DNA from: Myxococcales bacterium | Lineage (GTDB): Bacteria; Myxococcota_A; UBA9042 | DNA length: 64,000 bases | Assembly (NCBI GenBank): GCA_023954815.1 | Contig: JAGSHB010000002.1 | Coordinates: forward strand, 21,990-85,989 | Direction of reading: 5' to 3' | In this document: positions 4,781 to 52,121 of the stretch, piece after piece | Position numbering within the stretch: the first letter of the stretch is position 1 | Layout: every line of letters starts with the position of its first letter | Translations under genes and position numbers: made by a program | The notes under the pieces: model-generated | The model's database searches: none | Seen by the model: the letters and a program-made list of their open reading frames with translations, nothing else | Told to the model about the DNA's origin: nothing

Positions 4781-7700
4781 ATGAAGTCGAGTTGGCTACA
4801 ACACACCGCCCTAATGATCGCCGTCCTGCTGATGGCGTTTGCACCGCCTGCGTTTGCGAAAGGCAAGCGTCGAGCCAAGGGCAAAGCCTCTGGCGAGGTC
4901 ACCCTCTTCAGCCGTCCAGGGTCCAAAAAGGGCAAGAAGGGCAAGAAGGGCAAGGGCGCTGCCAAGCAAAAGAAGAAGAAGGTCGCTGCGGTGCCCAAGC
5001 GGGTGACTGCCGCGCGGGCAACGCGCGGAAAAGCGAGCGTCGAAGACATCGATGATGAGGTCGACATCCTCCGTGAGTTGTTGGAGATCGAGCGCGGCTC
5101 CCCCAGTGAGGCGGACACGCTGCTGGAGCTGTCCTACGTGCTCTGGGACCGCGCCGCCGCCTACGAGATGGAGGCCTACGACACCTACTACACGGTGGGT
5201 ATCGCCAAGGCGAAGAAGGCGGGCAACAAAGCCAAGGCCCACCGTCTGAAGATCGAGCAGCAGAACCTGCTGGAGCAGTCGCGCGGCACAAAGAATAAGG
5301 TCATCGACTACCTCAAACGGGTTGAGCGCCGCTTCCGTCGCTTTTCGAAACTCGACGAAGTGCTCTACGCGTTGGGCTTTCACCTCAATGAGATGAACCG
5401 CCACGGTGAAGCAGTCGACGCGTACATGCGCTTGGTTCGCAAGACGCCCAAGAGCGCCTACATCCCTGACGCGTACCTCGGTATTGGCAACTACTACTTT
5501 GGTAAGAACCAGGGTGGCGAGGCCATGAAGTGGTTTGAAAAGGTCAAGAAATTCCCACAGTCCGGTGCCTATGGCTGGGCGCTCTACTACGAGGCGTGGG
5601 TCCACTACAACCGCCAGAACTACCGCGGCGCAACGAAGGCTTTTGTGCGGGTGCTCGAGTACTCGGTCAAGGAGGCCAAGGGCCGTGTCAGCTTCTTGGC
5701 CGACGGCACCAAATACATGGTCCGCTCCTGGTCGGAGTATGGCGATCCTCGCCAGGCCGGTGCGTTCTTCAAACAGTCGGTTCCCGGCCAGGAAGAGCGC
5801 TTGCTCGACCAGTTGGCGCGCTACTACCTGTCGACCTCGCGCTACAAGGACTCAAACATCGTCCTGAACTCGCTCATCAAGCTGAAGTGGGAAGACAAGC
5901 AGGTAGTCGAATACCTCTTCATGGCGGTGGAAAACACCTACAAACAAAACGACCTGCCGGGCACCATCAGCGCCATCGAGCGGCTGAGTGAGGGCCTGCA
6001 CAAACACGGCACGAGCCACAAGCGCAGCGGTGATATCGCCATGCTGCTCGCCGAGATGGCGTCGAACTACCACGCCGAATCCGAGCGCACATTGGACAAC
6101 CAGGTGTTGGCCTACGCTGAGAAGATCTACCTCAGCTACCTGACCTTCTACCCCGACCACAAAGTCAGCTACGACATGCGTCACAACCACGCGTTGGCGC
6201 TCTTTCAGCTGGGACGCTGGGTGGAGTCAGCCAAAGAGTACGAAAAAGTCATCGAGGCCAAGGGTCCAACGGGTAAATACGCCGAGCCGAGCGCTCACCG
6301 GGCGCTGATTTGCTACCTCAAGACTGAGAAACTCAACGAAGAGACAGCAGCCAAAGACGACGACGAGATGTACAAGGCGAAGGCGATTCGTCCCGACAAA
6401 GAGAAGATTGTGCATGCCTGCGAACGCTACGTGGACATCGCTCAGCGTCAGAAGAAGAAGGAAGACGTGCCTGAGGCGCTGTTTGTGCTCGCTCGGATCT
6501 ACTACCAGCACAATCAGTTCGACAAATCAGGTGCCCGCTTCGCCAACTTCGTGACCAACTACCCCGATCACAAGCTGTCGCTCGATGCAGCGCGCCTCAT
6601 GCTCTCGAGTTTCAGCCTCGGTCAAGACGGCAACAACCTGATCAAGTGGACGGATATCCTCATCGCCAAGCCGCACTTCAACCAGGGTCGTCTGGGCGAG
6701 ATCTTGACTGCGATTAAGGAAAATGAGGACTACAACCGTTGCTTGTCGCTCAAAGATCAGCCAATGAAAGCGGCCAAGTGCCTGCTGAAATACGCCCGCG
6801 AGTACCCCAAGGGCAACATGGCGATTCGGGCGATGACCGGTGCCGCTGCCTTTTACCGGCGTGCGCGAAACCGCAACAAGGTTATCGAGATCTACAAGGC
6901 GATCGCCAAACGCTACTCGTCGGACGCGCGTGCGCCTGATGCCCTGTACGAAATCGGTGAGATTCACCGGGAGACTGCGCACTTCATCAAGGCGGCTGAG
7001 GCCTACGAGTACATGGCCGACACCTACCCGAAGGCCGATCTCTCGAAGGCGGCGCTGCAGCGTGCGGCGTTGATTCGTGATGGCTTGGGCCAGGACAAGA
7101 AGGTCATCGCCAACGCCTTCCGCGCGCTGAAGATGAAGAAAAAGCGCCTGAAGAAGGGCGAAGATCCCGATCCGGCCGACGCGATTGAAGCGGCTGAGGT
7201 GGCCTACCGCCTGACCGTGGTCTACCTGCGGAAGAAGCAGTGGCGGCAGGCGGTGATCTCGGCCAATGGCTTCGTGAAGAGCCGTACAGACCTGCCGCAG
7301 TACTTGCGTTTGGCAGCGCTGTCGAACATGGCCAACGCCTGGATGAACATCCGCCGCGGCGCGACGAAGGCGAAGAAGTACCTGGAAGAGGTGGAGGCGA
7401 TCGCCAACCAGCTCGCTGAAGAAGGCGAGTTCAAGAAGTTGCATCCGCTCGGCAAGGCGGCGATCGCCCAGGCGTTCTTCCTCCGTGGTGAGCTGCTGTA
7501 TCGCTCGATGTTACGCATCAAGATCAAGACCAAAAAGCTCAAAGATGCCGTAAAGTTGGCAACAGAGAAAGCCAAGCGTGCAGCCATGGCGGACAAGTAC
7601 TACCTCACCGTCGAAAAATCGAAGAATCCACGCTGGATCGCTGCAGCTGCCTCTCGGCGTGGTCGCGCTCAGCACGAGATCGGCAACAGCCTAGAGAATC

Positions 7701-20333: not shown

Positions 20334-20711
20334 CTAGTTTTCGGGCTCTTTGAGCAGAGGCTGCAACTCATCTGCCTCGATCAACGCGCGCAGATCACTC
20401 GCGCCCCCGACCAAAACGCCGCCCACGAAGACCATCGGGAAGGTCGGCCAACCCGTCCACATCTTGAGCGCGTTACGACGACGCCACTGGTTGAGGTACG
20501 AGCCATACTCCAGATAGACGTGGTCGACCCCCGCCTTGTTCAGCAAGAGGCGCGCCTTGATCGGATTGGGGTTCTGTTTCATGCCGACGACCACGACCTG
20601 ATTGGCTGCGACGGCCGACCGGACCTCGTCAACGATGTCGGAGTGACGACTGCCGATCTTGTGGCGGACTGCGGGATGGACTCTGTCTTCGGGTAAAATA
20701 TGACGTTGCAT
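20334..20711 (-). CDS. Glutaredoxin-fold protein lacking the active-site cysteine(s)
   Basis: ATG at 20711. The C-terminal half aligns to Grx (WPTFPMVFVGGVLVGGASDL). The CPYC/CGFS position reads GMKQNPNPIKA. Confidence 0.5.
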   Translation of the reverse strand: MQRHILPEDRVHPAVRHKIGSRHSDIVDEVRSAVAANQVVVVGMKQNPNPIKARLLLNKAGVDHVYLEYGSYLNQWRRRNALKMWTGWPTFPMVFVGGVLVGGASDLRALIEADELQPLLKEPEN

Positions 20712-20890
20712 CGGGCGGCTCCAGGATGAGGTGGGACCAAGAAAAGTCGGCAAACGCCGATGCGCAAGCAATTTTAGTGAGGTGCGCCCTCGCCCCTAGC
20801 GCGCGCGCAGGGACCGACTATGCTGCTAGGCCTCTGCGCGACACGAGCTTGGCCAACCGGCCACATTTTCCCCCGCGCTGACGAGGCTTG

Positions 20891-23596: not shown

Positions 23597-23627
23597 AGCG
23601 GCTGAGGCCTTGTTGGCCCCAGCCGCG
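23597..23627. terminator. GC-rich hairpin between convergent genes (M16 peptidase and propeller-CCP)
   Basis: GCGGCTGAGGCC-ttgtt-GGCCCCAGCCGC: a 12-bp stem with one mismatch. No clear U-tract. Confidence 0.3.
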
Positions 23628-23652: not shown

Positions 23653-25860
23653 CTACAGGGTCTTTAGGTAGGCGACCAGGTCATCGAGTTGCGCCTCGGA
23701 CAGGTGGTCGGTGTGGCCCATGGTCTTCGCCGTCATCTTGAGCGCCTCTTTGAGTGTACGTGCCCGGCCGTTGTGGAAGTACGGCGCTGTATGCCAAACG
23801 CCACGTAAGCTGGGCGTATCGTAGGGCAGCGGCACGTCCGTCCACTTCACGGCGACCTTGCTCTCATTGGCGATGCGCTGCGCCACCAAGAGCCGTTCGG
23901 CGGTGTCTGCGATCCCGACGTCAAAGCTCTTCGCGTTGGTGCCTGTCCCATTGGTGTGACACGTCGCGCAGGCCACCTTTGGATCGAAAAACAGCTTCTT
24001 GCCCCGGGTCGCGGCCGCCGACAGCTGCTGCGACTGACGGTTCGGATTGGGCGGTGGCACCAGTCCCTGGGTCAAGAACGCCTCCAGCGCCGCGAGGTCA
24101 TCAGCCTTCAACCCCTTGCCGCCCATACGCTCGATGGTCTTGCCCATGTTGTTCTTCAGGGCATGTTCTGTGCCCTTCCAGTTAAATGGCGCCGTCCCCA
24201 GCAAGCGACCGGCGAGGGCTGGCGTCTGCCTTGGCTCCCCGTCGACAAACCAGACCTTCTTGTCCTCGTCGCCCTCAAAGTGACAGCTCGCACACGCGAA
24301 GCGGCTCGCCTCGGAGATGCCCTGGTTGGGGGTGTGGTGGAAGATGCGGCGCCCCTTGCGCAACAGTGGCGGCAGGGGATCGATGCCGTATGCCGCTTGG
24401 GTGGACACGAAAGTCAGCATCGGCGCTTTCAGGCGTTTGCTTGAACTAAAGGCCTGACTAGGCGTCGTAACCGCACGAGCGATCAGCGGGGCGACATCGA
24501 CCCGGCTAACCGTGAAGTCGTGGCCGTTGAGTACATAGGCCGTCTTGCCGTCGGCGCTCAGCGCCAAGCCACGGGGGCCCTGACCGACGTTGATCGCAGC
24601 CAGAGGCGCGGTGATCGGATCTTTCACGGCCGTGTTCAGCGCGAGCACGTTGTCGGTACCCGTCGCCACCAAGAAGGCCACACTCACCGACGGATGATGA
24701 ACCAAGTCGACAGGCTGATCGAAACGACTGAGGAAATCGCGGTGGGTCTCTGGATCACGCACCGGCGACGAGCCTCCGAAGTGTTTCACCTGACCCAAAC
24801 TCGCCACGCGCGGCGTCACGCTCACCTGCATCGGACGCTGCGGAATCTGCGAGCAAGCGCTCGAGCCTCCGTAACCACCGGACGACGCTTTCTGTACGTT
24901 GGTCTGTGCAACACCCCGGTTTTGCAGAGTGTGACCGACGAGGTAGCCGCCGCCTGGCGTGCCCGCAAGAGCCACCGAACGACTCGCACGATCCGTCTGA
25001 GGCTCCGTGCTCGCGCCCTGATTGACCGTGCCCTTGGACATGAAGGCGCCCGGCTCAGTCGGGTTGTGACTGCGCAGCATGCGCAGCTGAGAAGGACCGG
25101 TTTTCGGCGTGCCTTTATTCAAATCACTCAGCTTGATCTCAGAGACGCGACCCCACTCGTGGCTCACGGCGAGGTGCGGGCTGATGCTGTCGGTGCCCGT
25201 CACCACCAAGACGCGGCGAGGACGCGGCGCCGTCTTGACCGATAGCAGCTGCGTGCCCGTGTCCGTCCGCAGGGCCAACACCCGATCTTCCCCCGAAAGT
25301 GCGACCCAGAGACGACTCTCATCGGCGCTGAGCGCAAGACCGACCGGCGCAACGCCCACGGGCCACGTCTGGGCCGTTTTCGCACCCTTGGCGATCTTGG
25401 CGACCACGCCGGCGTGCCGCAGCGACACGAACGCAGTGCCATCCGCAGTCACAGTCACCAACTCAGGGCGACCTGCCAAAGCGATGGTGCGCTTGGTCTT
25501 GAGCGTCTCGCCGTCGAGTACGACCAACTTGTCGTTGTCTCTATCGACCGCAAACACCTCGCCCTGGTGAAAAGCGATGGCATGACCGGTCTGGCGCGCT
25601 GGCGTCGGCAGCGTCTCCGCTCCGAGCACAATCGGTGCCGGCATGGGCATCTTTCCCAGTCCAGGCGGTAGCGCATCAGTCGGCAACCCCTTGAATTTGA
25701 GTGGCTCGCACGCCGGAGCGCCAGGTGTCGGCATCGGCATCGGCTCGACGACGCTGGGCTCCTCAATGGTGCAGCCCGCAGGCGAGAGCAAGAGCAACGC
25801 CGCAGCCCAAAGGGGCGAACGCTGCAGGCGGGTAAACAGGGCGGGGTGAGTCACATTCAT
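23653..25860 (-). CDS. Lipoprotein with N-terminal beta-propeller fused to C-terminal di-haem cytochrome c peroxidase (CCP/MauG family) domain
   Basis: Signal peptide. Repeated propeller blades (LALSADG..Y-type). Two CxxCH (CASCH, CATCH). CCP signatures GTAPFNWKG and PSLRGVWHTAPYFHNG. Confidence 0.8.
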   Translation of the reverse strand: MNVTHPALFTRLQRSPLWAAALLLLSPAGCTIEEPSVVEPMPMPTPGAPACEPLKFKGLPTDALPPGLGKMPMPAPIVLGAETLPTPARQTGHAIAFHQGEVFAVDRDNDKLVVLDGETLKTKRTIALAGRPELVTVTADGTAFVSLRHAGVVAKIAKGAKTAQTWPVGVAPVGLALSADESRLWVALSGEDRVLALRTDTGTQLLSVKTAPRPRRVLVVTGTDSISPHLAVSHEWGRVSEIKLSDLNKGTPKTGPSQLRMLRSHNPTEPGAFMSKGTVNQGASTEPQTDRASRSVALAGTPGGGYLVGHTLQNRGVAQTNVQKASSGGYGGSSACSQIPQRPMQVSVTPRVASLGQVKHFGGSSPVRDPETHRDFLSRFDQPVDLVHHPSVSVAFLVATGTDNVLALNTAVKDPITAPLAAINVGQGPRGLALSADGKTAYVLNGHDFTVSRVDVAPLIARAVTTPSQAFSSSKRLKAPMLTFVSTQAAYGIDPLPPLLRKGRRIFHHTPNQGISEASRFACASCHFEGDEDKKVWFVDGEPRQTPALAGRLLGTAPFNWKGTEHALKNNMGKTIERMGGKGLKADDLAALEAFLTQGLVPPPNPNRQSQQLSAAATRGKKLFFDPKVACATCHTNGTGTNAKSFDVGIADTAERLLVAQRIANESKVAVKWTDVPLPYDTPSLRGVWHTAPYFHNGRARTLKEALKMTAKTMGHTDHLSEAQLDDLVAYLKTL

Positions 25861-25949
25861 AAGGTGTTCTCCTGAGGGTCTCCCTCAGATGAAAGCAAGG
25901 TCCATGCCACGACGCCAGCGTCTTATCCTACTATACCGGGATCACTCCT

Positions 25950-26122: not shown

Positions 26123-27106
26123 ATGAAAAGACGACTCCGAGCCGTGCCGTGGGCCACGGCAATCCTGCTGCCCTTGACCCTCCTCACCTCCTGCGAACCC
26201 AATCGCGAGGCGCCGACGCTGTCTTGTAAGAGTTCAGCGCAGTGTCCCGCCGGGGGAACGCATTTCTGCAATCTGGCGACGAACACCTGCGAGAGCTGCG
26301 CTGGCGGTGGCTGTGCTGTGTCAGATGCGGGTAGCGACGCGGTCGTGGCAGACACGGGCGGCACAGATGCGGGCAGCACAGATGCGGTCTCGGCTGACAC
26401 ATCTACGGCCGACGCCAGCGCGACAGATGCGGCGGCGACAGATAGCATTTCTGCGGATGTGACGGGCTCCGATGCGCTGGCGCCGGACGCGCCTGACGCA
26501 TTGGCAGACGCTGTGTCCAGCGACACCATTGCGACAGACATTGCCGATAGTGATGCGGATGCGAGCAACGATACGGATGCCGGCGGCGACACAGATGTTG
26601 CGGCGGCTGATGGCGCAAGCGCGTGCGGTCACCCGGCGCAATGTGTCGGCGCGGCGATGCCAAGCTGGAAGCTGACCGATGTTCAGCCGAAAAGTCCGAA
26701 ATTCAAGACGGTCTACGGCCTATCCGGCTTTGTCGGCAAGGTGACGGTGGTCGCGTTATTAGCAGGCTGGTGAAGCTTCTGCGTTTCCCAGGCTGGGAAA
26801 CTAAACGACCTCAAAAAAGAACTCGATACCCTCAACAAGTCCGTTCATTTTGCCGCAGTCAACGCCATTAGCGCCGACTCTCCTGCCGACCAAGCGTCTC
26901 TCACTGGCGTGGCTACATTCCCGATTTTCCAGGATGTGACCGCAGTCAAAGCGTGGGAGAGCACGGGCGGCAACAAGGACGACATCTACATCTACGACAG
27001 CAAGGGCAAGCTCGCCCACTACCTGCCAGTCATCGGATCCGTCGATACCGACCTATCCGCCGGCGGCTATGCAGCGCTGAAGAAGCTCATTTTGGCGACG
27101 AAGTAG
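26123..27106 (+). CDS. Candidate selenoprotein: lipoprotein with low-complexity linker and TlpA/redoxin-like thioredoxin-fold domain, in-frame TGA (26771..26773) read as Sec in a UxxC motif
   Basis: ORFs 26087..26773 and 26909..27106 share the same frame, with no ATG/GTG/TTG and no stop between them. The TGA replaces the first Cys of the GKVTVVALLAGW-[TGA]-SFC motif. The downstream sequence completes the Trx fold (TFPIFQD...DDIYIYDSKGKL). ATG at 26123, lipobox LLTSC. Confidence 0.6.
26783..26801 (+). other. SECIS-like hairpin downstream of the in-frame TGA
   Basis: gUUUCCCA-GGC-UGGGAAAc: an 8-bp stem with a GGC loop that begins 10 nt after the UGA. The apical G lies about 20 nt from the UGA, within the bSECIS range. 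Confidence 0.4.
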
Positions 27107-28232
27107 GCTTATCTACCTTCTTCTTCCCGCCGCCGATGAGCCTCTTGCTTAGGTTATCGTAAAATATTGCGACGTTATTGGCGCGCAGCAGATCGATTGC
27201 GCGAATCTGCACGTCGCGAATCCGCACCCCCGTTAAAATGCCCTGCGCGATGTCCGCCCGGACTTTGGGATCGGTGAGCTTGCCATCCAGGGCGGGCTCG
27301 ATGCGATCGAGGCGCACGATGTGCCAGCCGTGAGGCGTGCGAATGGGCTCGCCGATGGTCCCCGGCTTGATCTTGGCGACGCCGAGCACATAGGACTCGA
27401 GCATCAGATCGTAGTCGCCCTGCTGATCGTAGGGCTTGGAGTCATCGTAGAAGTAGCTGATGTCGTTGCAGGTCACGGACGGAAACTCGCCGGTCATGTT
27501 GCGAACGCGCCCACACATGTGCTCCGGCGTCTTCGGTGGATTGGCCGTGAGCTTGCCGTAAAGCTCGTAGGCCATCGGCTGCAACTTGGTGATACAGGCC
27601 TGCGCGGTGGGGTCGATCTTGCAGCGACGCCAGTCTCCCTGGCAGCAGAGCAGCTGCGCATCGGTGACCCACCACCCCTTGGCGTGGGAATACCGCACCC
27701 GGATCGGGCTGCGTCGCCAGGCACGATCGATGTCCGCCGCCTTGACCTGCTTGGCGGTGTATTTCTCCTCAAATTCGATGCGCAACAGTCGCCGAACCAA
27801 GGCGCGTTTGTAGGGGCGAATCAGCCACCTCGCCCACAGTCCGTCTTTCTGGGCCTTCTGAGCGAGCACTTCGGCCCGAACCAGCGCATGGACAACATCC
27901 CGATTGCTGATGTGAGCAGGATAGGCGGAGCGCACCCGATCAAAATCAGCTCGAGTCACCGCTACACCGGCAACACAGGCGAGTTGATCTGGCGCTGGAA
28001 CGCCTATTTTACAAGACTTTCGCGCCCAGGGCGCTGCTGGGGAGATCCCTGTACTGGGCAGCTGCCAATGCCGACCCGCGACGGGTCCAGTTGTGTCAGG
28101 TGCCACCTCACAGCCCCCGATCAATGCCAGACAGGCTCCCAAGACCAACACAACCGCCCGCCCGATGGGATGGGTGGGCGCGCGCGTGCTGCGGTCAATT
28201 GGGGCGGTTCGGTACGGCGACTTGTTAGCCAT
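27087..28232 (-). CDS. Parvulin-type PPIase putative lipoprotein
   Basis: ATG at 28232. Signal with LIGGC. PpiC-like motif TPHGWHIVRL. Lys-rich C-terminal tail. 3' end overlaps the selenoprotein candidate 3' end by 20 nt, convergently. Confidence 0.65.
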   Translation of the reverse strand: MANKSPYRTAPIDRSTRAPTHPIGRAVVLVLGACLALIGGCEVAPDTTGPVAGRHWQLPSTGISPAAPWARKSCKIGVPAPDQLACVAGVAVTRADFDRVRSAYPAHISNRDVVHALVRAEVLAQKAQKDGLWARWLIRPYKRALVRRLLRIEFEEKYTAKQVKAADIDRAWRRSPIRVRYSHAKGWWVTDAQLLCCQGDWRRCKIDPTAQACITKLQPMAYELYGKLTANPPKTPEHMCGRVRNMTGEFPSVTCNDISYFYDDSKPYDQQGDYDLMLESYVLGVAKIKPGTIGEPIRTPHGWHIVRLDRIEPALDGKLTDPKVRADIAQGILTGVRIRDVQIRAIDLLRANNVAIFYDNLSKRLIGGGKKKVDKPTSSPK

Positions 28233-28233
28233 G

Positions 28234-28431
28234 TCACTCCTCTTTGCCCGGAAGTGCAACGCCTTGTGCGCCCGCAGTCAACTCCACAGCAGCACGCGCT
28301 GTCACCCAGGCCATAGCCAAACCAAGACCAGCGCCAAGGGGATCGCCAGCGTCCAGTGCACGGAGCCCAAAGCCGATGGGTACGCAGGAAAGGACGGCAA
28401 GGATGAGGCCGACGATCTTCATGCTGTTCAT
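28234..28431 (-). CDS. Small hydrophobic protein (65 aa), translationally coupled
   Basis: ATG at 28431 overlaps the upstream stop (ATGA). Two predicted TM segments. Stop lies 1 nt before the PPIase start. Confidence 0.4.
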   Translation of the reverse strand: MNSMKIVGLILAVLSCVPIGFGLRALDAGDPLGAGLGLAMAWVTARAAVELTAGAQGVALPGKEE

Positions 28432-29120
28432 GACCACCACCTCCAAAAGACAGCCAGCGCAACCAACGCACCGCCGCGAACGAGCCACCACGCCGGCCGC
28501 GGATACCGAACCGCCGATTTGCCAAGCCCAATGCTGTAGACCGCGACCCAGCAGACCGCAACCGCCGCGACTCGCCGAGTTCGATCTGGACCACCGAACC
28601 ATGCGCCGAGTAGCCAAACGGCGCCGATACCAGGCAGCAACCAGCCACCGTCGGCGCGCAAGAGCGAGCGCAACCTCTCATTGGCAGTGGCGCGTTTGCC
28701 GCGTTCCGCATCGACCGTCGCTGCGATAAACGTCAGGAGGAGCCCTGCAACCGCCAACCCCTGGAGCGGACTGGTCACCCGAGGGCCGAGCAGCTCCGGG
28801 CAAGCCACGAGCGGCGGAATCAAACTACCGAGCCCAGTGACCAACAGCGTGCGGGCCTGCGCCAGCGCCGCAGACAAGGTCGTCAGCAGCAACGGCAAGC
28901 CCACTAGCACCATACAAACCGGGCGCGTCAGCCGTTGGCCGGGATAGAGCCAGAGATAGGGAACCGCTACGGTCACAGCCCACAGCGCCCACGCCCACAC
29001 GAGCGGACGCAGCAAGCGGCGCACCGAACGCACGCGGCGACGAGTCGTGTCGCCGATAGACTTGAGCGCATTGTGACGGACCGGCACCATGGGCGCCATG
29101 ATAGCGGTGGATGCAACCAT
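28428..29120 (-). CDS. Trp-rich polytopic membrane protein (start uncertain)
   Basis: Hydrophobic helix periodicity is on the minus strand only. Candidate ATG at 29120, with other ATG/GTG starts possible up to 29270. Confidence 0.4.
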   Translation of the reverse strand: MVASTAIMAPMVPVRHNALKSIGDTTRRRVRSVRRLLRPLVWAWALWAVTVAVPYLWLYPGQRLTRPVCMVLVGLPLLLTTLSAALAQARTLLVTGLGSLIPPLVACPELLGPRVTSPLQGLAVAGLLLTFIAATVDAERGKRATANERLRSLLRADGGWLLPGIGAVWLLGAWFGGPDRTRRVAAVAVCWVAVYSIGLGKSAVRYPRPAWWLVRGGALVALAVFWRWWS

Positions 29121-29889
29121 GACCAGTAGTCGTATCGGAGAGACTGGCTCAAGTTGGGTTCGGCCACGGCACAGGTGGGCGCAAGTCAGCTCCGCTGCGA
29201 CGCTGCTAGTCGTTTGTTCCCTCGTTGCCTGCCCCGCCTTGGGTCGTGACATGACTGGGAAAGGCGGCATCGGCCTGCTCCAGTCCAGTCACCCCCAGAT
29301 GAACCTGCTGCCCACCCTAACCTTTCGCTATTGGGGCGCCCGCTCCTGCTGGGAGGCGTTGGTCGGTTTTGGCCTCTTGCGCGATCGCGATACGACGGCT
29401 GTGCTCCTGAAGACGGCCCCGGATGAAGAAGTCCTCATGGCCGATAGCGCGGTGCCGAGCGAAGGGGTCCAGAGCGCAACGCAGCTCTTTCTCGATACGA
29501 CCCGGATCTATTTCGGACTGGGCTTCCACAAAATCGTGGTCAATACGCCGCGGCTCACCGTCACACTGGGTGCCCGCGGCATCGCGCAATATTCGACGAC
29601 GGAGCGCAAGAAGCGGCAACAAGGCGAATCCGATGCCGGCACCGTGATCAGCGCGCTCGCGCTTTTGGGGGAGTTCCCGCTGCAAGCTGAGTTCTTTCTC
29701 TCCGACCACAGCAGTATCGTCGCCATGGTCGCGCTCACGGCCTCCGTCGCGAGCAGTTTCCAGGCCACCAGCAACCAAGACAGCGGCCTCGCAGAGTTGC
29801 TAGGAACGACCGCGACGGGTAGAGGTGGCGTCGCGCTGCAACTCGGCGGCCGCTATTCAGGCGGACTCGGTTTCACCTACTACTTCTGA
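29119..29889 (+). CDS. Putative outer-membrane beta-barrel protein
   Basis: Signal peptide (…LLVVCSLVACPALG). Alternating amphipathic strands. C-terminal ...GFTYYF aromatic terminus. Start ambiguous (29089 vs 29119). Confidence 0.45.
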   Translation: MTSSRIGETGSSWVRPRHRWAQVSSAATLLVVCSLVACPALGRDMTGKGGIGLLQSSHPQMNLLPTLTFRYWGARSCWEALVGFGLLRDRDTTAVLLKTAPDEEVLMADSAVPSEGVQSATQLFLDTTRIYFGLGFHKIVVNTPRLTVTLGARGIAQYSTTERKKRQQGESDAGTVISALALLGEFPLQAEFFLSDHSSIVAMVALTASVASSFQATSNQDSGLAELLGTTATGRGGVALQLGGRYSGGLGFTYYF

Positions 29890-50514: not shown

Positions 50515-51801
50515 CTATGCGGCCGAAACATGAGCGCTTTCGGAGCGTAACTGCTTGACGTAGCGGAAGAAGGTGCTTCTGGGCAGCCCGCTGGCCCGAT
50601 GCGCAGCTGCCACCGTTGAACAACTTTGCAGCAGATCGGCGACCAACTCCCGCCGTTGAGGCAGCGCGGGCCCACGGGCCGGCTTGCCAATGGCACGGCA
50701 GAGATCACTCAAAGAAGGTGGGGCTCCGCCGGTCCGCATATTGATGCGACGGCCCACGTTCTTCAGTTCGCGGACATTTCCTGGCCAGCGGTGCTGACGC
50801 AGCACCTCGCCGGCGCCGCTGGGGAGATGCGTTCCGATAAACCCCTCGAGCAGCGGCACCAAATCAGCGGTCCGCGATCGAAGCGGCGGCAGGGTGACCT
50901 CAGCGACCGCCAAACGATGCAGCAAATCCAAGCGAAAGCGACCCGCTCGCACGGCCTTGGCGAGATCTCTGTGTGTAGCCGCCACCACCCGTACATCGAC
51001 TCTTCGCATGTCGCCGCCGACCACCTGCACCTCTCCTGTCTCCAAGACTCGGAGCAGCGCGGCCTGCGCTGGCGGACTGAGTTCGCCGACCTCGTCCAGA
51101 AACAACGTGCCGCCGCTCGCTCTAGAAAACGCCCCCTCCCGATTGTCGACGCTGCCGGTGTACGCGCCGCGCCGCGAGCCAAACAGCTCCGCTTCCAGCA
51201 GACCTGGTGGAAGGGCTGCACAGTTGAGCGCGACAAATGGGCGGTCCGCCCGGGGCGAGACGTCGTGGGCCAAGCGACTCGCCAACTCTTTGCCGGCGCC
51301 GGTCTCGCCGCGAATGAGCAAGGGAGCCTCACTCTCGCCCGCGATGGCGAGCTCAGCGAAGGCCTGCCATAGGTTGGGACAAGACGACCGCATCTGCCCC
51401 GCTTGCAACCACGGCCTGCCGCCATCGCTCCCTTCACCGCGCAAGATCAGGATGGGCACGCCAGCGAGCCGCAGCACGGTACCGACATCAACCCGTGCCG
51501 TTGCCCCGACACGTTTGCCGCCCAAGACAAGCCCGGCCCCGGTGAGATCGCGCACGCGCACCTGGCCACCCAACCACTCAAACCGCCCCTGCTGAGAGGC
51601 GAGTCGCGGCAGCTGTACGTCGGCAGATGGGCCCGAGCCAACGATGACGGGATCGCCGAGCGAGTGGCGACGCCAGCTGTGAGCGGTGGGCACCAAAATC
51701 CAAGGGACTGCGTCACCTTCAACAGCTGAAAGCGCGCTGCCGACCGATGAAATCGCCCGTTTGGTGGCAGATCGGCTTGTCTCATTACGCTGCCGATGCA
51801 T
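50515..51801 (-). CDS. Sigma-54-dependent transcriptional activator with N-terminal FHA-like domain
   Basis: ATG at 51801. AAA+ sigma-54 interaction domain (GETGAGKELASR, GAFS-like, ESELFG). C-terminal Fis-type HTH. Confidence 0.8.
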   Translation of the reverse strand: MHRQRNETSRSATKRAISSVGSALSAVEGDAVPWILVPTAHSWRRHSLGDPVIVGSGPSADVQLPRLASQQGRFEWLGGQVRVRDLTGAGLVLGGKRVGATARVDVGTVLRLAGVPILILRGEGSDGGRPWLQAGQMRSSCPNLWQAFAELAIAGESEAPLLIRGETGAGKELASRLAHDVSPRADRPFVALNCAALPPGLLEAELFGSRRGAYTGSVDNREGAFSRASGGTLFLDEVGELSPPAQAALLRVLETGEVQVVGGDMRRVDVRVVAATHRDLAKAVRAGRFRLDLLHRLAVAEVTLPPLRSRTADLVPLLEGFIGTHLPSGAGEVLRQHRWPGNVRELKNVGRRINMRTGGAPPSLSDLCRAIGKPARGPALPQRRELVADLLQSCSTVAAAHRASGLPRSTFFRYVKQLRSESAHVSAA

Positions 51802-52121
51802 CACGCCACCTCCTGAAGGGCGACGGTCCACGCGCGATCGGTCGCAGGCAGCAGAGGCAGCGCGGTCAAGAGCGCCTGACCCTGGGCGGGAAGGCCGCCG
51901 GCCGTTACAGCCAGCGCGACTTGATAGAGCCACCACTGCGCTGATGCACCCAACTCCTCACTGACACGGCGCCACGCCTCAGGATGATCAGCAATCGCCT
52001 CCTGCAACCCAGCGACACAGCGGAGTTCCCCGTCGAGTTCCAACAAGGTAAGTCGCTGTTTCAACATCCGTAGTCTAGCGTTTGCCTGCACGATCACTTG
52101 CGCCATCTGTAGCTCCGTCAT
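51801..52121 (-). CDS. Small hypothetical protein (106 aa), translationally coupled upstream of the sigma-54 activator
   Basis: ATG at 52121 with GGAGG RBS. Its stop overlaps the activator start. Confidence 0.4.
   Translation of the reverse strand: MTELQMAQVIVQANARLRMLKQRLTLLELDGELRCVAGLQEAIADHPEAWRRVSEELGASAQWWLYQVALAVTAGGLPAQGQALLTALPLLPATDRAWTVALQEVA

What the first reader, a model, noticed from the sequence alone, without database searches (positions are those of the whole stretch)
23653..25860. Beta-propeller fused to di-haem cytochrome c peroxidase, paired with the Sec-redoxin and a parvulin operon (candidate periplasmic peroxide/disulfide module)
The 735-aa lipoprotein has a multi-blade propeller N-terminal region. 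It carries a complete CCP/MauG-family C-terminal domain: CASCH and CATCH haem sites, GTAPFNWKG, and PSLRGVWHTAPYFHNG. Its divergent neighbour is the candidate selenoprotein redoxin. A convergent operon follows, encoding a polytopic membrane protein, a small membrane protein and a parvulin lipoprotein. Together these form a plausible periplasmic oxidative-stress and folding unit. The propeller-CCP fusion itself is an unusual architecture. It could be a MauG-like protein modifier rather than a simple peroxidase.
Basis: partly seen in the sequence, partly recalled or inferred. Interest (0 to 1): 0.6.

Follow-up and report, generated by a model that had tools for sequence, protein, structure and literature searches.

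The report
Propeller–di-haem lipoprotein, hydrazine-synthase-βγ-like, stand-alone
The gene is real and encodes an exported lipoprotein with a seven-bladed propeller fused to a two-haem domain. This fusion is a common, still uncharacterised bacterial architecture, and it is not functionally tied to the neighbouring selenoprotein or parvulin genes.

Summary
It has a lipoprotein signal (Cys30), a seven-bladed YVTN propeller (about residues 90-460) and a C-terminal di-haem domain of the CCP/MauG superfamily.

- **Closest solved relatives.** These are the gamma and beta subunits of anammox hydrazine synthase, which are fused in Scalindua. Classical peroxidases and MauG score lower. It is not hydrazine synthase: Trp replaces gammaHis144, Gly replaces gammaCys165, there is no alpha-subunit gene in 64 kb, and it scores 71 bits against a cut-off of 1250.
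- **The architecture is common.** At least 486 species-representative genomes encode a relative, and 5674 library proteins match at E<=1e-30. A 2025 paper already describes such fused homologues.
- **The proposed module is not supported.** The redoxin, parvulin and membrane genes adjoin the gene only in the 71% relative, plus the redoxin alone on the truncated 65% contig, and there the surrounding housekeeping genes are collinear too. Eight orthologues at 33-46% identity and 80 genome loci lack them.
- **Transcription.** The gene looks monocistronic, with its own conserved sigma-54 promoter and a terminator hairpin.
- **Likely function.** A periplasmic small-oxidant reductase, with peroxide favoured. 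Substrate untested.

Verdict: new member of a known, uncharacterised kind. Interest is low to moderate.

The parts
23653..25860 (-). Gene for the 735-aa propeller-di-haem lipoprotein (P0001)
   Evidence: ORF. It is a 100% match to an NCBI MAG protein, and there are full-length homologues.
25771..25860 (-). Signal peptide with lipobox (residues 1-30; lipidated Cys30 in LLSPAG-C)
   Evidence: Read directly from the sequence. A Cys is conserved at this column in the family alignment, consensus 'GC'. Export and lipidation are inferred, not shown.
24481..25593 (-). Seven-bladed YVTN-type beta-propeller (about residues 90-460). Blade 5 carries large insertions that hold invariant Tyr330 (SGGYG) and the nearly invariant His310 and RFDQP..HHP motif.
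   Evidence: TIGR02276 scores above its cut-off. The profile matches 1l0q at E 9e-46 and HZS-beta at 74 bits. The AF2 strand pattern supports the fold, and the Foldseek top hit is 5c2v_B (E 3e-14, TMt 0.71).
24046..24378 (-). First haem domain (about residues 495-605). It holds CASCH 523-527 (nt 24280-24294), the RQTP motif (Gln545 at the bCCP Ca-ligand position), Trp561, Asn571, Thr575 and Arg578. This is the predicted catalytic haem.
   Evidence: HMMER alignments to Pa CCP 1eb7 and to HZS-gamma 5c2v_C.
23656..24045 (-). Second haem domain (residues 606-735). It holds CATCH 631-635 (nt 23956-23970), the TPSLRG..TAPYFHNG motif and Met714. This is the predicted electron-entry haem.
   Evidence: Pfam Cytochrom_C, RoxA-like_Cyt-c and CCP_MauG score above their cut-offs on residues 615-735. 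It aligns to the C-terminal domains of bCCPs and to HZS-gamma. Met714 is conserved in 62 of 63 members.
25894..25909 (-). Sigma-54 (-24/-12) promoter-like element TGGCATGGACCTTGCT, 33 nt upstream of the ATG
   Evidence: It is the only exact match to TGGCAY-N5-TTGCW in the window, against 0.16 expected. It is conserved 34-43 nt upstream of the ATG in L001 and L004.
23598..23626 (-). Terminator-like hairpin 27 nt after the stop codon (12-bp stem, 10 G-C pairs)
   Evidence: This is a consensus scan only, and the number of sites found in the region did not exceed shuffles.
26123..27106 (+). Divergent neighbour: a candidate selenoprotein thioredoxin-fold lipoprotein (W-U-S-F-C, TGA at 26771-26773, hairpin at 26783-26801). 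It is adjacent but not shown to be functionally linked.
   Evidence: Translation. NCBIfam redoxin_TUGYCR scores 66 bits, below its cut-off of 100. The TGA and the hairpin are conserved in L001. It is absent from the other 88 loci that carry a relative of the di-haem gene.
27087..29270 (-). Three-gene string convergent with the redoxin: polytopic membrane protein (28428..about 29087), small membrane protein (28234..about 28431) and parvulin-like lipoprotein (27087..28232). It is adjacent but not shown to be linked.
   Evidence: ORFs. The PPIC-type hits are weak and below their cut-offs. The string is conserved only in L001-L003.

Best explanation
The gene encodes a stand-alone, lipid-anchored periplasmic oxidoreductase. 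[quoted passage not shown]

**Shown by sequence and tools:**
- A lipoprotein signal.
- A seven-bladed YVTN propeller.
- Two c-type haem sites in two cytochrome-c-like domains.
- A conserved Trp (561) at the position of the electron-relay Trp of bacterial peroxidases.
- Residues matching the peroxidase Ca2+ site.
- A conserved Met (714) near the second haem.
- No counterpart of the His71 loop that blocks the catalytic haem in resting peroxidases.

**Inferred mechanism:**
- A periplasmic c-type cytochrome delivers electrons to the C-terminal His/Met haem.
- The electrons pass via Trp561 to an open, five-coordinate N-terminal haem.
- There a small oxidant is reduced in a pocket lined by Asn571, Thr575 and Arg578.
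- The pocket is probably capped by conserved propeller loops carrying Tyr330 and His310, much as the beta propeller packs on gamma in hydrazine synthase.

Hydrogen peroxide is the most likely substrate. NO or hydroxylamine is the main alternative. Expression is from its own sigma-54 promoter, so it depends on an unidentified enhancer-binding activator. It is not co-transcribed with the neighbouring genes.
For: **Family identity**
- The family profile matches HZS-gamma 5c2v_C at 121 bits (E 4.6e-34). The best bCCP scores 67 bits and MauG 30 bits.
- The di-haem part alone aligns end to end with HZS-gamma.
- The best NCBIfam model is hydrazine_BC, the fused beta-gamma subunit, collinear over residues 420-735.
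- The Foldseek top hit for the propeller is HZS-beta 5c2v_B.

**CCP-type cofactor environment**
- R544-Q545-T546-P547 align with Pa CCP R78-N79-S80-P81, Trp561 with Trp94 and Asn571 with Gln104. The His71 segment is an insertion absent from the family.
- T/S691-x-P693 and H696 align with T256, P258 and H261.
- Conservation in 63 diverse members: Trp561 62/63, Arg578 62/63, Met714 62/63, Tyr330 63/63, His310 61/63.

**Stand-alone status**
- Neighbours vary across 8 orthologue loci and 80 genome loci.
- The sigma-54 element is unique in the window and conserved in close relatives. There is a terminator-like hairpin after the stop codon.

**Commonness**
-, and PMC12758564.
Against: - No activity has been measured for any member of this family, so the substrate is a guess.
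- The catalytic Glu114 of bCCP/MauG has no conserved counterpart (position 577 is variable). Gln104 is replaced by Asn and Pro108 by Thr.
- The N-terminal haem domain alone is only marginally similar to anything solved: 23 bits to HZS-gamma and 20 bits to Pa CCP.
- HMMER places the bCCP Met ligand 3-4 residues upstream of Met714, so His/Met ligation is inferred, not shown.
- The AF2 model has no haems. Contact between the propeller loops and the haem pocket is therefore untested.
- The closest solved relative binds NO, not peroxide (PMC12607021).
- No electron donor gene was identified nearby.
Confidence: 0.55

Rival explanations
1. N-oxide chemistry like hydrazine synthase gamma. The first haem would bind NO (or hydroxylamine or nitrite) and reduce it, making the protein a periplasmic NO-detoxifying or N-cycle enzyme rather than a peroxidase.
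For: HZS-gamma is the closest solved relative of the di-haem module. The R-[MV]-x-G motif is shared, with Arg578 aligning to gammaArg163. Haem gammaI binds NO (PMC12607021). A distal Arg, possibly with Tyr and His from the propeller, would resemble N-oxide-reducing haem sites; this last point rests on my own knowledge of NrfA and is not tested.
Against: The HZS-specific residues are absent: Trp for gammaHis144, Gly for gammaCys165, and gammaAsp168 lies in an insertion missing here. The second haem appears to be Met-ligated, implying high potential, unlike the bis-His haem gammaII at -330 mV. There is no alpha-subunit homologue in the window or in any Myxococcota-family locus. No N-cycle genes were seen among about 30 window ORFs scanned.
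Confidence: 0.2
2. MauG/MbnH/BthA-like protein or peptide modifier. The di-haem unit would form a high-valent species and oxidise a macromolecular substrate docked on the propeller.
For: It belongs to the same superfamily. Trp561 occupies the position of MauG's Trp93 relay (my knowledge of MauG; the bCCP alignment is). The first haem lacks the His71 loop, so it may be constitutively open as in MauG. The large propeller with invariant surface-loop residues could be a docking platform.
Against: Met714 is conserved (62/63) where MauG-type enzymes need a Tyr ligand to stabilise bis-Fe(IV) (the ligand identity in MauG is from my knowledge). TTQ_mauG scores 27.6 against 443.85 and MbnH 34.5 against 362.85, and MauG structures score only about 30 bits. 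No conserved neighbouring substrate gene was found in 92 loci.
Confidence: 0.12
3. The di-haem protein, the Sec-redoxin and the parvulin operon would form one co-regulated periplasmic peroxide/disulfide/folding unit, with the redoxin reducing the haem protein or its substrates.
For: All are predicted exported or lipoproteins, and they are adjacent in the window. The full arrangement is kept in the 71% relative (L001-L003). The divergent redoxin is also seen on the truncated contig of the 65% relative, L004. The divergent pair shares an intergenic region of about 260 bp that could hold an activator site.
Against: In L001-L004 the neighbouring housekeeping genes (M16 peptidase, glutaredoxin-like ORF, LspA, and in L001-L003 also SpoU methylase and FAD_binding_4) are collinear too. 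The adjacency therefore reflects recent common ancestry rather than selection. None of 8 orthologue loci at 33-46% identity and none of 80 genome loci has a redoxin, parvulin or the membrane genes nearby. Only the di-haem gene has a sigma-54 element. The units are divergent or convergent, not an operon. bCCP-type enzymes take electrons from cytochromes or cupredoxins, not thiols (established knowledge).
Confidence: 0.08
4. A non-catalytic electron-transfer or surface-scaffold lipoprotein: a propeller used for binding, with two haems acting only as a wire.
For: The catalytic Glu of bCCPs is not conserved. YVTN propellers are common in surface and S-layer proteins (1l0q).
Against: The predicted distal pocket is strongly conserved (Asn571, Thr575, Arg578), as are Tyr330 and His310, across members that share about 30% identity overall. 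The His71-type sixth ligand is absent.
Confidence: 0.05

Closest known systems
Hydrazine synthase beta and gamma subunits (Kuenenia 5c2v_B/C; fused beta-gamma in Scalindua; NCBIfam NF052342/NF052341)
   Same: Both have an N-terminal seven-bladed propeller followed collinearly by a two-haem CCP-like module. HZS gives the best sequence match of the di-haem part (121 bits; end-to-end alignment) and the best structural match of the propeller. The R-x-x-G motif after the relay position is shared.
   Different: It scores 71 bits against a cut-off of 1250. Trp replaces gammaHis144, Gly replaces gammaCys165, and gammaAsp168 is missing. A conserved Met replaces the bis-His arrangement at haem II. There is no alpha-subunit gene. 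It is a lipoprotein of a Myxococcota MAG, not an anammoxosome enzyme.
Fused beta-gamma homologues of hydrazine synthase outside anammox bacteria (Hagglund et al. 2025, PMC12758564)
   Same: Same fused architecture, the same two canonical haem motifs, and Trp rather than His at gammaHis144. These are the kind of protein this gene belongs to.
   Different: The paper's clades I-III sit beside an HZS_alpha homologue, an FG-GAP/CRTAC1 protein and ABC substrate-binding proteins. I recovered that cluster in about 20 Acidobacteriota and Flavobacteriaceae loci. The Myxococcota subfamily, including this gene, has none of these partners and no extra N-terminal haems.
Bacterial di-haem cytochrome c peroxidases (Pseudomonas aeruginosa CCP 1eb7, Nitrosomonas europaea 1iqc, Shewanella CcpA 3o5c)
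   Same: Two cytochrome-c-like domains are present. The relay Trp, the Ca-site positions, the PYFH(D/N)G motif and a Met near the second haem are all found.
   Different: There is an extra 400-residue propeller and a lipid anchor. The His71 loop is absent, Gln104 becomes Asn and Pro108 becomes Thr. No conserved Glu114 is present, and Arg578 is conserved instead. NCBIfam CytoC_perox scores 36 against a cut-off of 150.
MauG / MbnH / BthA di-haem oxidants
   Same: Same superfamily fold and relay Trp. The first haem is probably open.
   Different: There is no Tyr ligand signature, no partner substrate gene, and model scores are far below their cut-offs.

Membership tests
Bacterial di-haem cytochrome c peroxidase (bCCP) | Two CxxCH haem sites in two cytochrome-c-like domains | tested here: met
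   CASCH 523-527 and CATCH 631-635. Five of the six Cys/His positions are invariant and Cys634 is >=90% conserved in 63 members.
Bacterial di-haem cytochrome c peroxidase (bCCP) | Passes the curated family models | tested here: inconclusive
   Pfam CCP_MauG scores 36.3 bits against a cut-off of 25.6, but the match lies on the second haem domain only (residues 619-714). NCBIfam CytoC_perox scores 36 against 150, so that model is not met.
Bacterial di-haem cytochrome c peroxidase (bCCP) | Relay Trp between the haems (Pa Trp94) and Ca2+-site residues (Asn79, Thr256, Pro258) | tested here: met
   Trp561 aligns with Trp94 and Gln545 with Asn79. T/S691 and Pro693 align with Thr256 and Pro258. Conservation is 62/63, 63/63 and 63/63. 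The Asn-to-Gln change is conservative.
Bacterial di-haem cytochrome c peroxidase (bCCP) | Catalytic distal Gln104 and Glu114 at the peroxidatic haem | tested here: not met
   Asn571 sits at the Gln104 position. No conserved acidic residue occurs in residues 572-583: position 577 is variable and Arg578 is conserved in 62/63.
Bacterial di-haem cytochrome c peroxidase (bCCP) | Met axial ligand of the electron-transfer haem (Pa Met275) | tested here: inconclusive
   Met714 is conserved in 62/63, but HMMER aligns the bCCP Met 3-4 residues upstream of it. Ligation cannot be seen without a haem-bound structure.
Bacterial di-haem cytochrome c peroxidase (bCCP) | H2O2 reduction with a cytochrome c or cupredoxin donor | not testable with these tools
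   Needs an enzyme assay.
MauG / MbnH-type di-haem oxidants | Tyr axial ligand on the six-coordinate haem, and passing the family model | tested here: not met
   A conserved Met, and no conserved Tyr, lies in the ligand segment 700-720. TTQ_mauG scores 27.6 against 443.85 and MbnH 34.5 against 362.85.
MauG / MbnH-type di-haem oxidants | Adjacent gene for the protein or peptide substrate or partner (mauA/B, mbnP) | tested here: not met
   No recurrent neighbour was found in the Myxococcota-family loci.
Hydrazine synthase beta-gamma | Propeller followed by a di-haem module, collinear | tested here: met
   hydrazine_BC aligns residues 420-735 to model positions 339-690 of 690. 5c2v_C and 5c2v_B are the top solved matches.
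Hydrazine synthase beta-gamma | Curated model cut-off (NF052342 1250 bits; NF052341 625 bits) | tested here: not met
   70.7 and 63.9 bits.
Hydrazine synthase beta-gamma | gammaHis144, the third thioether Cys165, distal Asp168 and a bis-His haem gammaII | tested here: not met
   Trp561, Gly580, a deletion at Asp168, and Met714 without the adjacent His. The residue roles are taken from PMC12758564 and PMC12607021.
Hydrazine synthase beta-gamma | Co-located alpha-subunit gene (HZS_alpha domain) | tested here: not met
   tblastn with an HZS_alpha-domain neighbour from L082 (Pfam-confirmed) finds nothing in the 64-kb window or in the Myxococcota loci.
Uncharacterised fused propeller-di-haem family (non-anammox beta-gamma homologues, PMC12758564) | Fused architecture with two canonical haem motifs and Trp at the gammaHis144 position | tested here: met
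.
Uncharacterised fused propeller-di-haem family (non-anammox beta-gamma homologues, PMC12758564) | Clade I-III gene cluster: alpha homologue, FG-GAP/CRTAC1 protein and substrate-binding proteins | tested here: not met
   The cluster is present in about 20 Acidobacteriota and Flavobacteriaceae loci. It is absent here and in all Myxococcota-family loci. This gene therefore belongs to the partner-less part of the family.

The most novel reading that the evidence does not exclude
The Myxococcota-centred subfamily has more than 100 clusters at 50% identity that match the profile end to end. It could be a self-sufficient enzyme without an alpha subunit, in which an invariant Tyr330 and a near-invariant His310 on propeller insertion loops reach over a c-type haem. 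Together with Arg578 they would form a composite active site unlike that of peroxidases, MauG or hydrazine synthase. Such a site might perform O-O or N-O chemistry of a new kind. The subfamily might also represent the ancestral stand-alone state from which the beta-gamma half of hydrazine synthase was recruited.
Probability: 0.15. Interest if true: 0.6.

Novelty: new member of a known kind. Interest (0 to 1): 0.3.

Why it matters
As it stands, this corrects an over-reading. The gene is a routine member of a large, already noticed but biochemically untouched family, and the attractive redox/folding module is an accident of gene order in one lineage.

The family itself is worth an experiment. 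It is the nearest non-anammox relative of the beta-gamma half of hydrazine synthase. It is abundant in soil and aquatic Myxococcota, Acidobacteriota, Chloroflexota and others, and nobody knows its substrate. The partner-less, lipoprotein form found here is the simplest version to express and assay. Its conserved Tyr330, His310 and Arg578 give clear mutagenesis targets.

Tried and rejected
- **Redoxin side of the synteny.** A metagenome scan with the redoxin domain found no confirmed relatives.
- **First haem domain alone against the PDB.** Only marginal hits came back (<=23 bits). The alignment stops at Asn571/Gln104, so the Glu114 equivalence rests on column conservation only.
- **Shared operator in the divergent intergenic region.** An alignment of the window, L001 and L004 shows patchy conservation apart from the sigma-54 element. 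No sigma-70-like promoter was found.
- **tRNA and Rfam scans of the window.** Neither found anything, so there is no tRNA-Sec and no annotated SECIS family.
- **Rejected: hydrazine synthase or an overlooked anammox gene.** The key residues, the alpha subunit and the model scores all fail.
- **Rejected: cd1-type nitrite reductase.** cd1 structures appear among the Foldseek hits only as generic propellers, and no d1-haem genes were seen.
- **Activator not assigned.** A sigma-54 enhancer-binding protein lies 25 kb away (50515-51936). Nothing links it to this promoter, so I did not assign it.
Full report
**Observation**

The minus-strand ORF at 23653..25860 encodes 735 residues from an ATG. It is identical to a deposited protein named 'MAG: c-type cytochrome [Myxococcales bacterium]' (P0001). 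The N-terminus ends in LLSPAG-C30. A Cys at that column recurs in nearly all relatives, so a lipoprotein is a fair inference.

The neighbours are also as described:
- A divergent ORF (26087/26123..27106, +) has a single in-frame TGA at 26771-26773 within W-U-S-F-C. It gives a sub-threshold match to the NCBIfam 'TUGYCR' seleno-redoxin model (66 bits against 100).
- Three minus-strand genes lie convergent to that ORF: a polytopic membrane protein, a small membrane protein and a parvulin-like lipoprotein. The PPIase hits of the last are below Pfam cut-offs.

**What the protein is**

Single-sequence Pfam recognises only the last 120 residues: Cytochrom_C, RoxA-like_Cyt-c, and CCP_MauG at 36 bits. 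[quoted passage not shown] The YVTN repeat model scores above its cut-off.

A profile of 18 family members gives these scores against all PDB sequences:
- YVTN propeller 1l0q: E 9e-46.
- Hydrazine synthase gamma 5c2v_C: 121 bits, E 4.6e-34.
- Hydrazine synthase beta 5c2v_B: 74 bits.
- Best classical di-haem peroxidase: 67 bits.
- MauG: about 30 bits.

The di-haem part alone aligns end to end only with HZS-gamma. Peroxidases align well only over the second haem domain. An AlphaFold model built from the family alignment has pLDDT 75.9 and pTM 0.79. It shows about 28 strands between residues 95 and 455, consistent with seven four-stranded blades, with large insertions in the fifth blade. Its best Foldseek match in the PDB is HZS-beta (E 3e-14, target TM 0.71). 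This is only narrowly ahead of generic YVTN and WD propellers.

**Residue-level comparison**

HMMER aligns R544-Q545-T546-P547 with R78-N79-S80-P81 of Pseudomonas CCP, where Asn79 is the Ca2+ ligand. It aligns Trp561 with the relay Trp94 and Asn571 with the distal Gln104. The segment carrying His71, the ligand that blocks the peroxidatic haem in resting enzymes, is an insertion that this family lacks. In the second domain, T/S691-x-P693 and H696 match Thr256, Pro258 and His261.

Conservation across 63 diverse full-length members (27-45% identical to the query) is as follows:
- Both CxxCH motifs: essentially invariant (Cys634 >=90%, the other five positions invariant).
- Gln545, Thr546 and Tyr330: invariant.
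- Trp561, Arg578 and Met714: 62/63.
- His310: 61/63.
- Thr575: 59/63.
- Asn571: 56/63.

Position 577 is the only acidic candidate for the catalytic Glu114, and it is variable.

Against HZS-gamma, Arg578 aligns with Arg163 and Gly580 with Cys165, the unique third thioether. Trp561 aligns with His144, and Asp168 falls in an insertion absent here. Met714 aligns with the Met of 'DMHG' but lacks the following His. The residue roles come from PMC12758564 and PMC12607021.

The module therefore has the cofactor environment of a peroxidase: a relay Trp, a Ca site, a probable His/Met haem and an open first haem. Its distal pocket resembles neither peroxidases nor hydrazine synthase.

**How common it is**

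It is not.
- The word-indexed search returned dozens of proteins with the same propeller-plus-CCP domain lists. They come from Pirellulales, Elusimicrobia, Anaerolineae and Polyangium, and are usually named 'YVTN family beta-propeller protein' or 'c-type cytochrome'.
They fall in Myxococcota, Chloroflexota, Acidobacteriota, Verrucomicrobiota, Burkholderiales, Flavobacteriaceae and even a Heyndrickxia.
- An exhaustive profile search of 1.84 billion representatives found 5674 proteins at E<=1e-30. More than 100 clusters at 50% identity match the profile end to end.
- Hagglund et al. 2025 already reported more than 100 RefSeq hits to a fused beta-gamma query. They noted that these homologues carry Trp instead of gammaHis144.

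**Is there a module?**

I tested this from the side of the di-haem gene.
- In the 71% relative (L001-L003) the redoxin (again split by a TGA), the parvulin-like gene and the membrane genes are present. On the 65% relative (L004) only the redoxin was found, because the contig ends just beyond it.
- The surrounding housekeeping genes are collinear in these loci as well: M16 peptidase, a glutaredoxin-like ORF and LspA in all four, plus SpoU methylase and an FAD-binding oxidase in L001-L003.
- A sulfatase has been inserted next to the di-haem gene in both relatives, together with a Cu-monooxygenase-like gene in L004. This is genome collinearity, not selected linkage.
- In eight orthologues at 33-46% identity the neighbours differ completely and are mutually inconsistent.
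- A tblastn of eleven window neighbours against all 92 collected loci found the redoxin, parvulin and membrane genes nowhere else.
- An unbiased clustering of neighbouring ORFs found one recurrent cluster, in about 20 Acidobacteriota and Flavobacteriaceae loci. It comprises an HZS_alpha-domain protein, an FG-GAP/ASPIC protein, a periplasmic binding protein, a Reg_prop protein and RidA. This matches the published clades. It is absent from the window and from all Myxococcota-family loci.

**Transcription**

The only exact match in 64 kb to the sigma-54 consensus TGGCAY-N5-TTGCW lies at 25909..25894 (-), 33 nt upstream of the ATG. The expected number of matches is 0.16. Equivalent elements sit 43 and 34 nt upstream in L001 and L004, and 141 nt upstream in L012. 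None was found in six other orthologue loci. A 12-bp GC-rich hairpin follows the stop codon.

The gene therefore looks monocistronic and activator-dependent. The redoxin is divergent and has no such element, and the parvulin string is convergent with the redoxin. A sigma-54 activator gene lies 25 kb away, but nothing ties it to this promoter.

**Mechanism**

I commit to the following, with the steps marked.
- **Shown:** an export and lipid-anchor signal, a propeller, two haem c sites, and the conserved residues listed above.
- **Inferred from homology to bCCPs:** electrons enter at the C-terminal His/Met haem from a periplasmic cytochrome and cross via Trp561. They reduce a small oxidant at an open N-terminal haem.
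- **Inferred from the HZS beta-gamma arrangement and from conservation:** the propeller packs on the haem module, and its conserved insertion loops (SGGY330G, His310, RFDQP..HHP) help to form or gate the pocket.

Peroxide is the most economical substrate, and NO or hydroxylamine is the main alternative. A MauG-type role is unlikely because the Tyr ligand and any partner gene are missing.

**Verdict**

The gene is a new member of a known, uncharacterised kind. It is mildly interesting as a simple, partner-less representative of the family nearest to hydrazine synthase beta-gamma. It is not an unusual architecture and not part of a demonstrable module.

Noticed in passing
window 25894-25909 (-): A perfect sigma-54 -24/-12 element, TGGCATGGACCTTGCT, lies 33 nt upstream of the di-haem gene. 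It is the only such match in the window and is conserved in L001 and L004 (also L012). It implies control by an enhancer-binding protein.
   Followed up: partly
window 26771-26801 (+); L001 about 6960-7030 (-): The in-frame TGA of the redoxin is followed 9 nt later by an 8-bp hairpin (GUUUCCCA-GGC-UGGGAAAC). Both the TGA and the hairpin are conserved in the 71% relative, consistent with a bacterial SECIS. Folding energy alone is not significant (z = -1.4). No tRNA-Sec or sel genes were seen in the window.
   Followed up: partly
window 26300-26620 (+); L001 about 7250-7560 (-): The redoxin carries a long Asp/Ala/Thr/Ser-rich low-complexity linker between its Cys-rich N-terminal lipoprotein segment and the thioredoxin fold. 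In L001 it is a near-perfect tandem 'ADTAT' repeat.
   Followed up: no
window 20334-20771 (-): This glutaredoxin-fold ORF has a weak PF00462 hit recorded for its L004 homologue. It reads GMKQNPNPIKA where an active-site CxxC or CGFS motif would be expected, so it may be a Cys-less Grx-like protein. It is conserved next to LspA in relatives.
   Followed up: no
L001 10254-12194; L004 2971-6287: In the two closest relatives, a sulfatase gene is inserted between the di-haem gene and the M16 peptidase gene. L004 also has a PHM-like Cu2_monooxygen gene there. The window has neither. This is a local indel hotspot.
   Followed up: no
L037, L039, L042, L046, L048, L052, L057, L068-L072, L077, L080, L082, L083, L087, L092: About 20 Acidobacteriota and Flavobacteriaceae loci carry a conserved cluster around their propeller-di-haem gene. 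It comprises an HZS_alpha-domain protein, an FG-GAP/ASPIC protein, a Peripla_BP_6 binding protein, a Reg_prop propeller protein and RidA. This matches and slightly extends (Reg_prop, RidA) the cluster reported in PMC12758564.
   Followed up: partly
window 27087-27106: The 3' ends of the redoxin gene (+) and the parvulin-like gene (-) overlap by 20 bp. Convergent transcription would collide there.
   Followed up: no
window 50515-51936 (-): A sigma-54 enhancer-binding protein (Sigma54_activat, E 4e-55) lies 25 kb from the sigma-54 promoter. No link between them has been established.
   Followed up: no
window 29089-29889 (+): This 266-aa ORF ends in ...GFTYYF, an outer-membrane beta-barrel-like C-terminus. 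It is divergent from the membrane-protein/parvulin string, starts immediately beside it, and is conserved in L001. No family hit was found.
   Followed up: no
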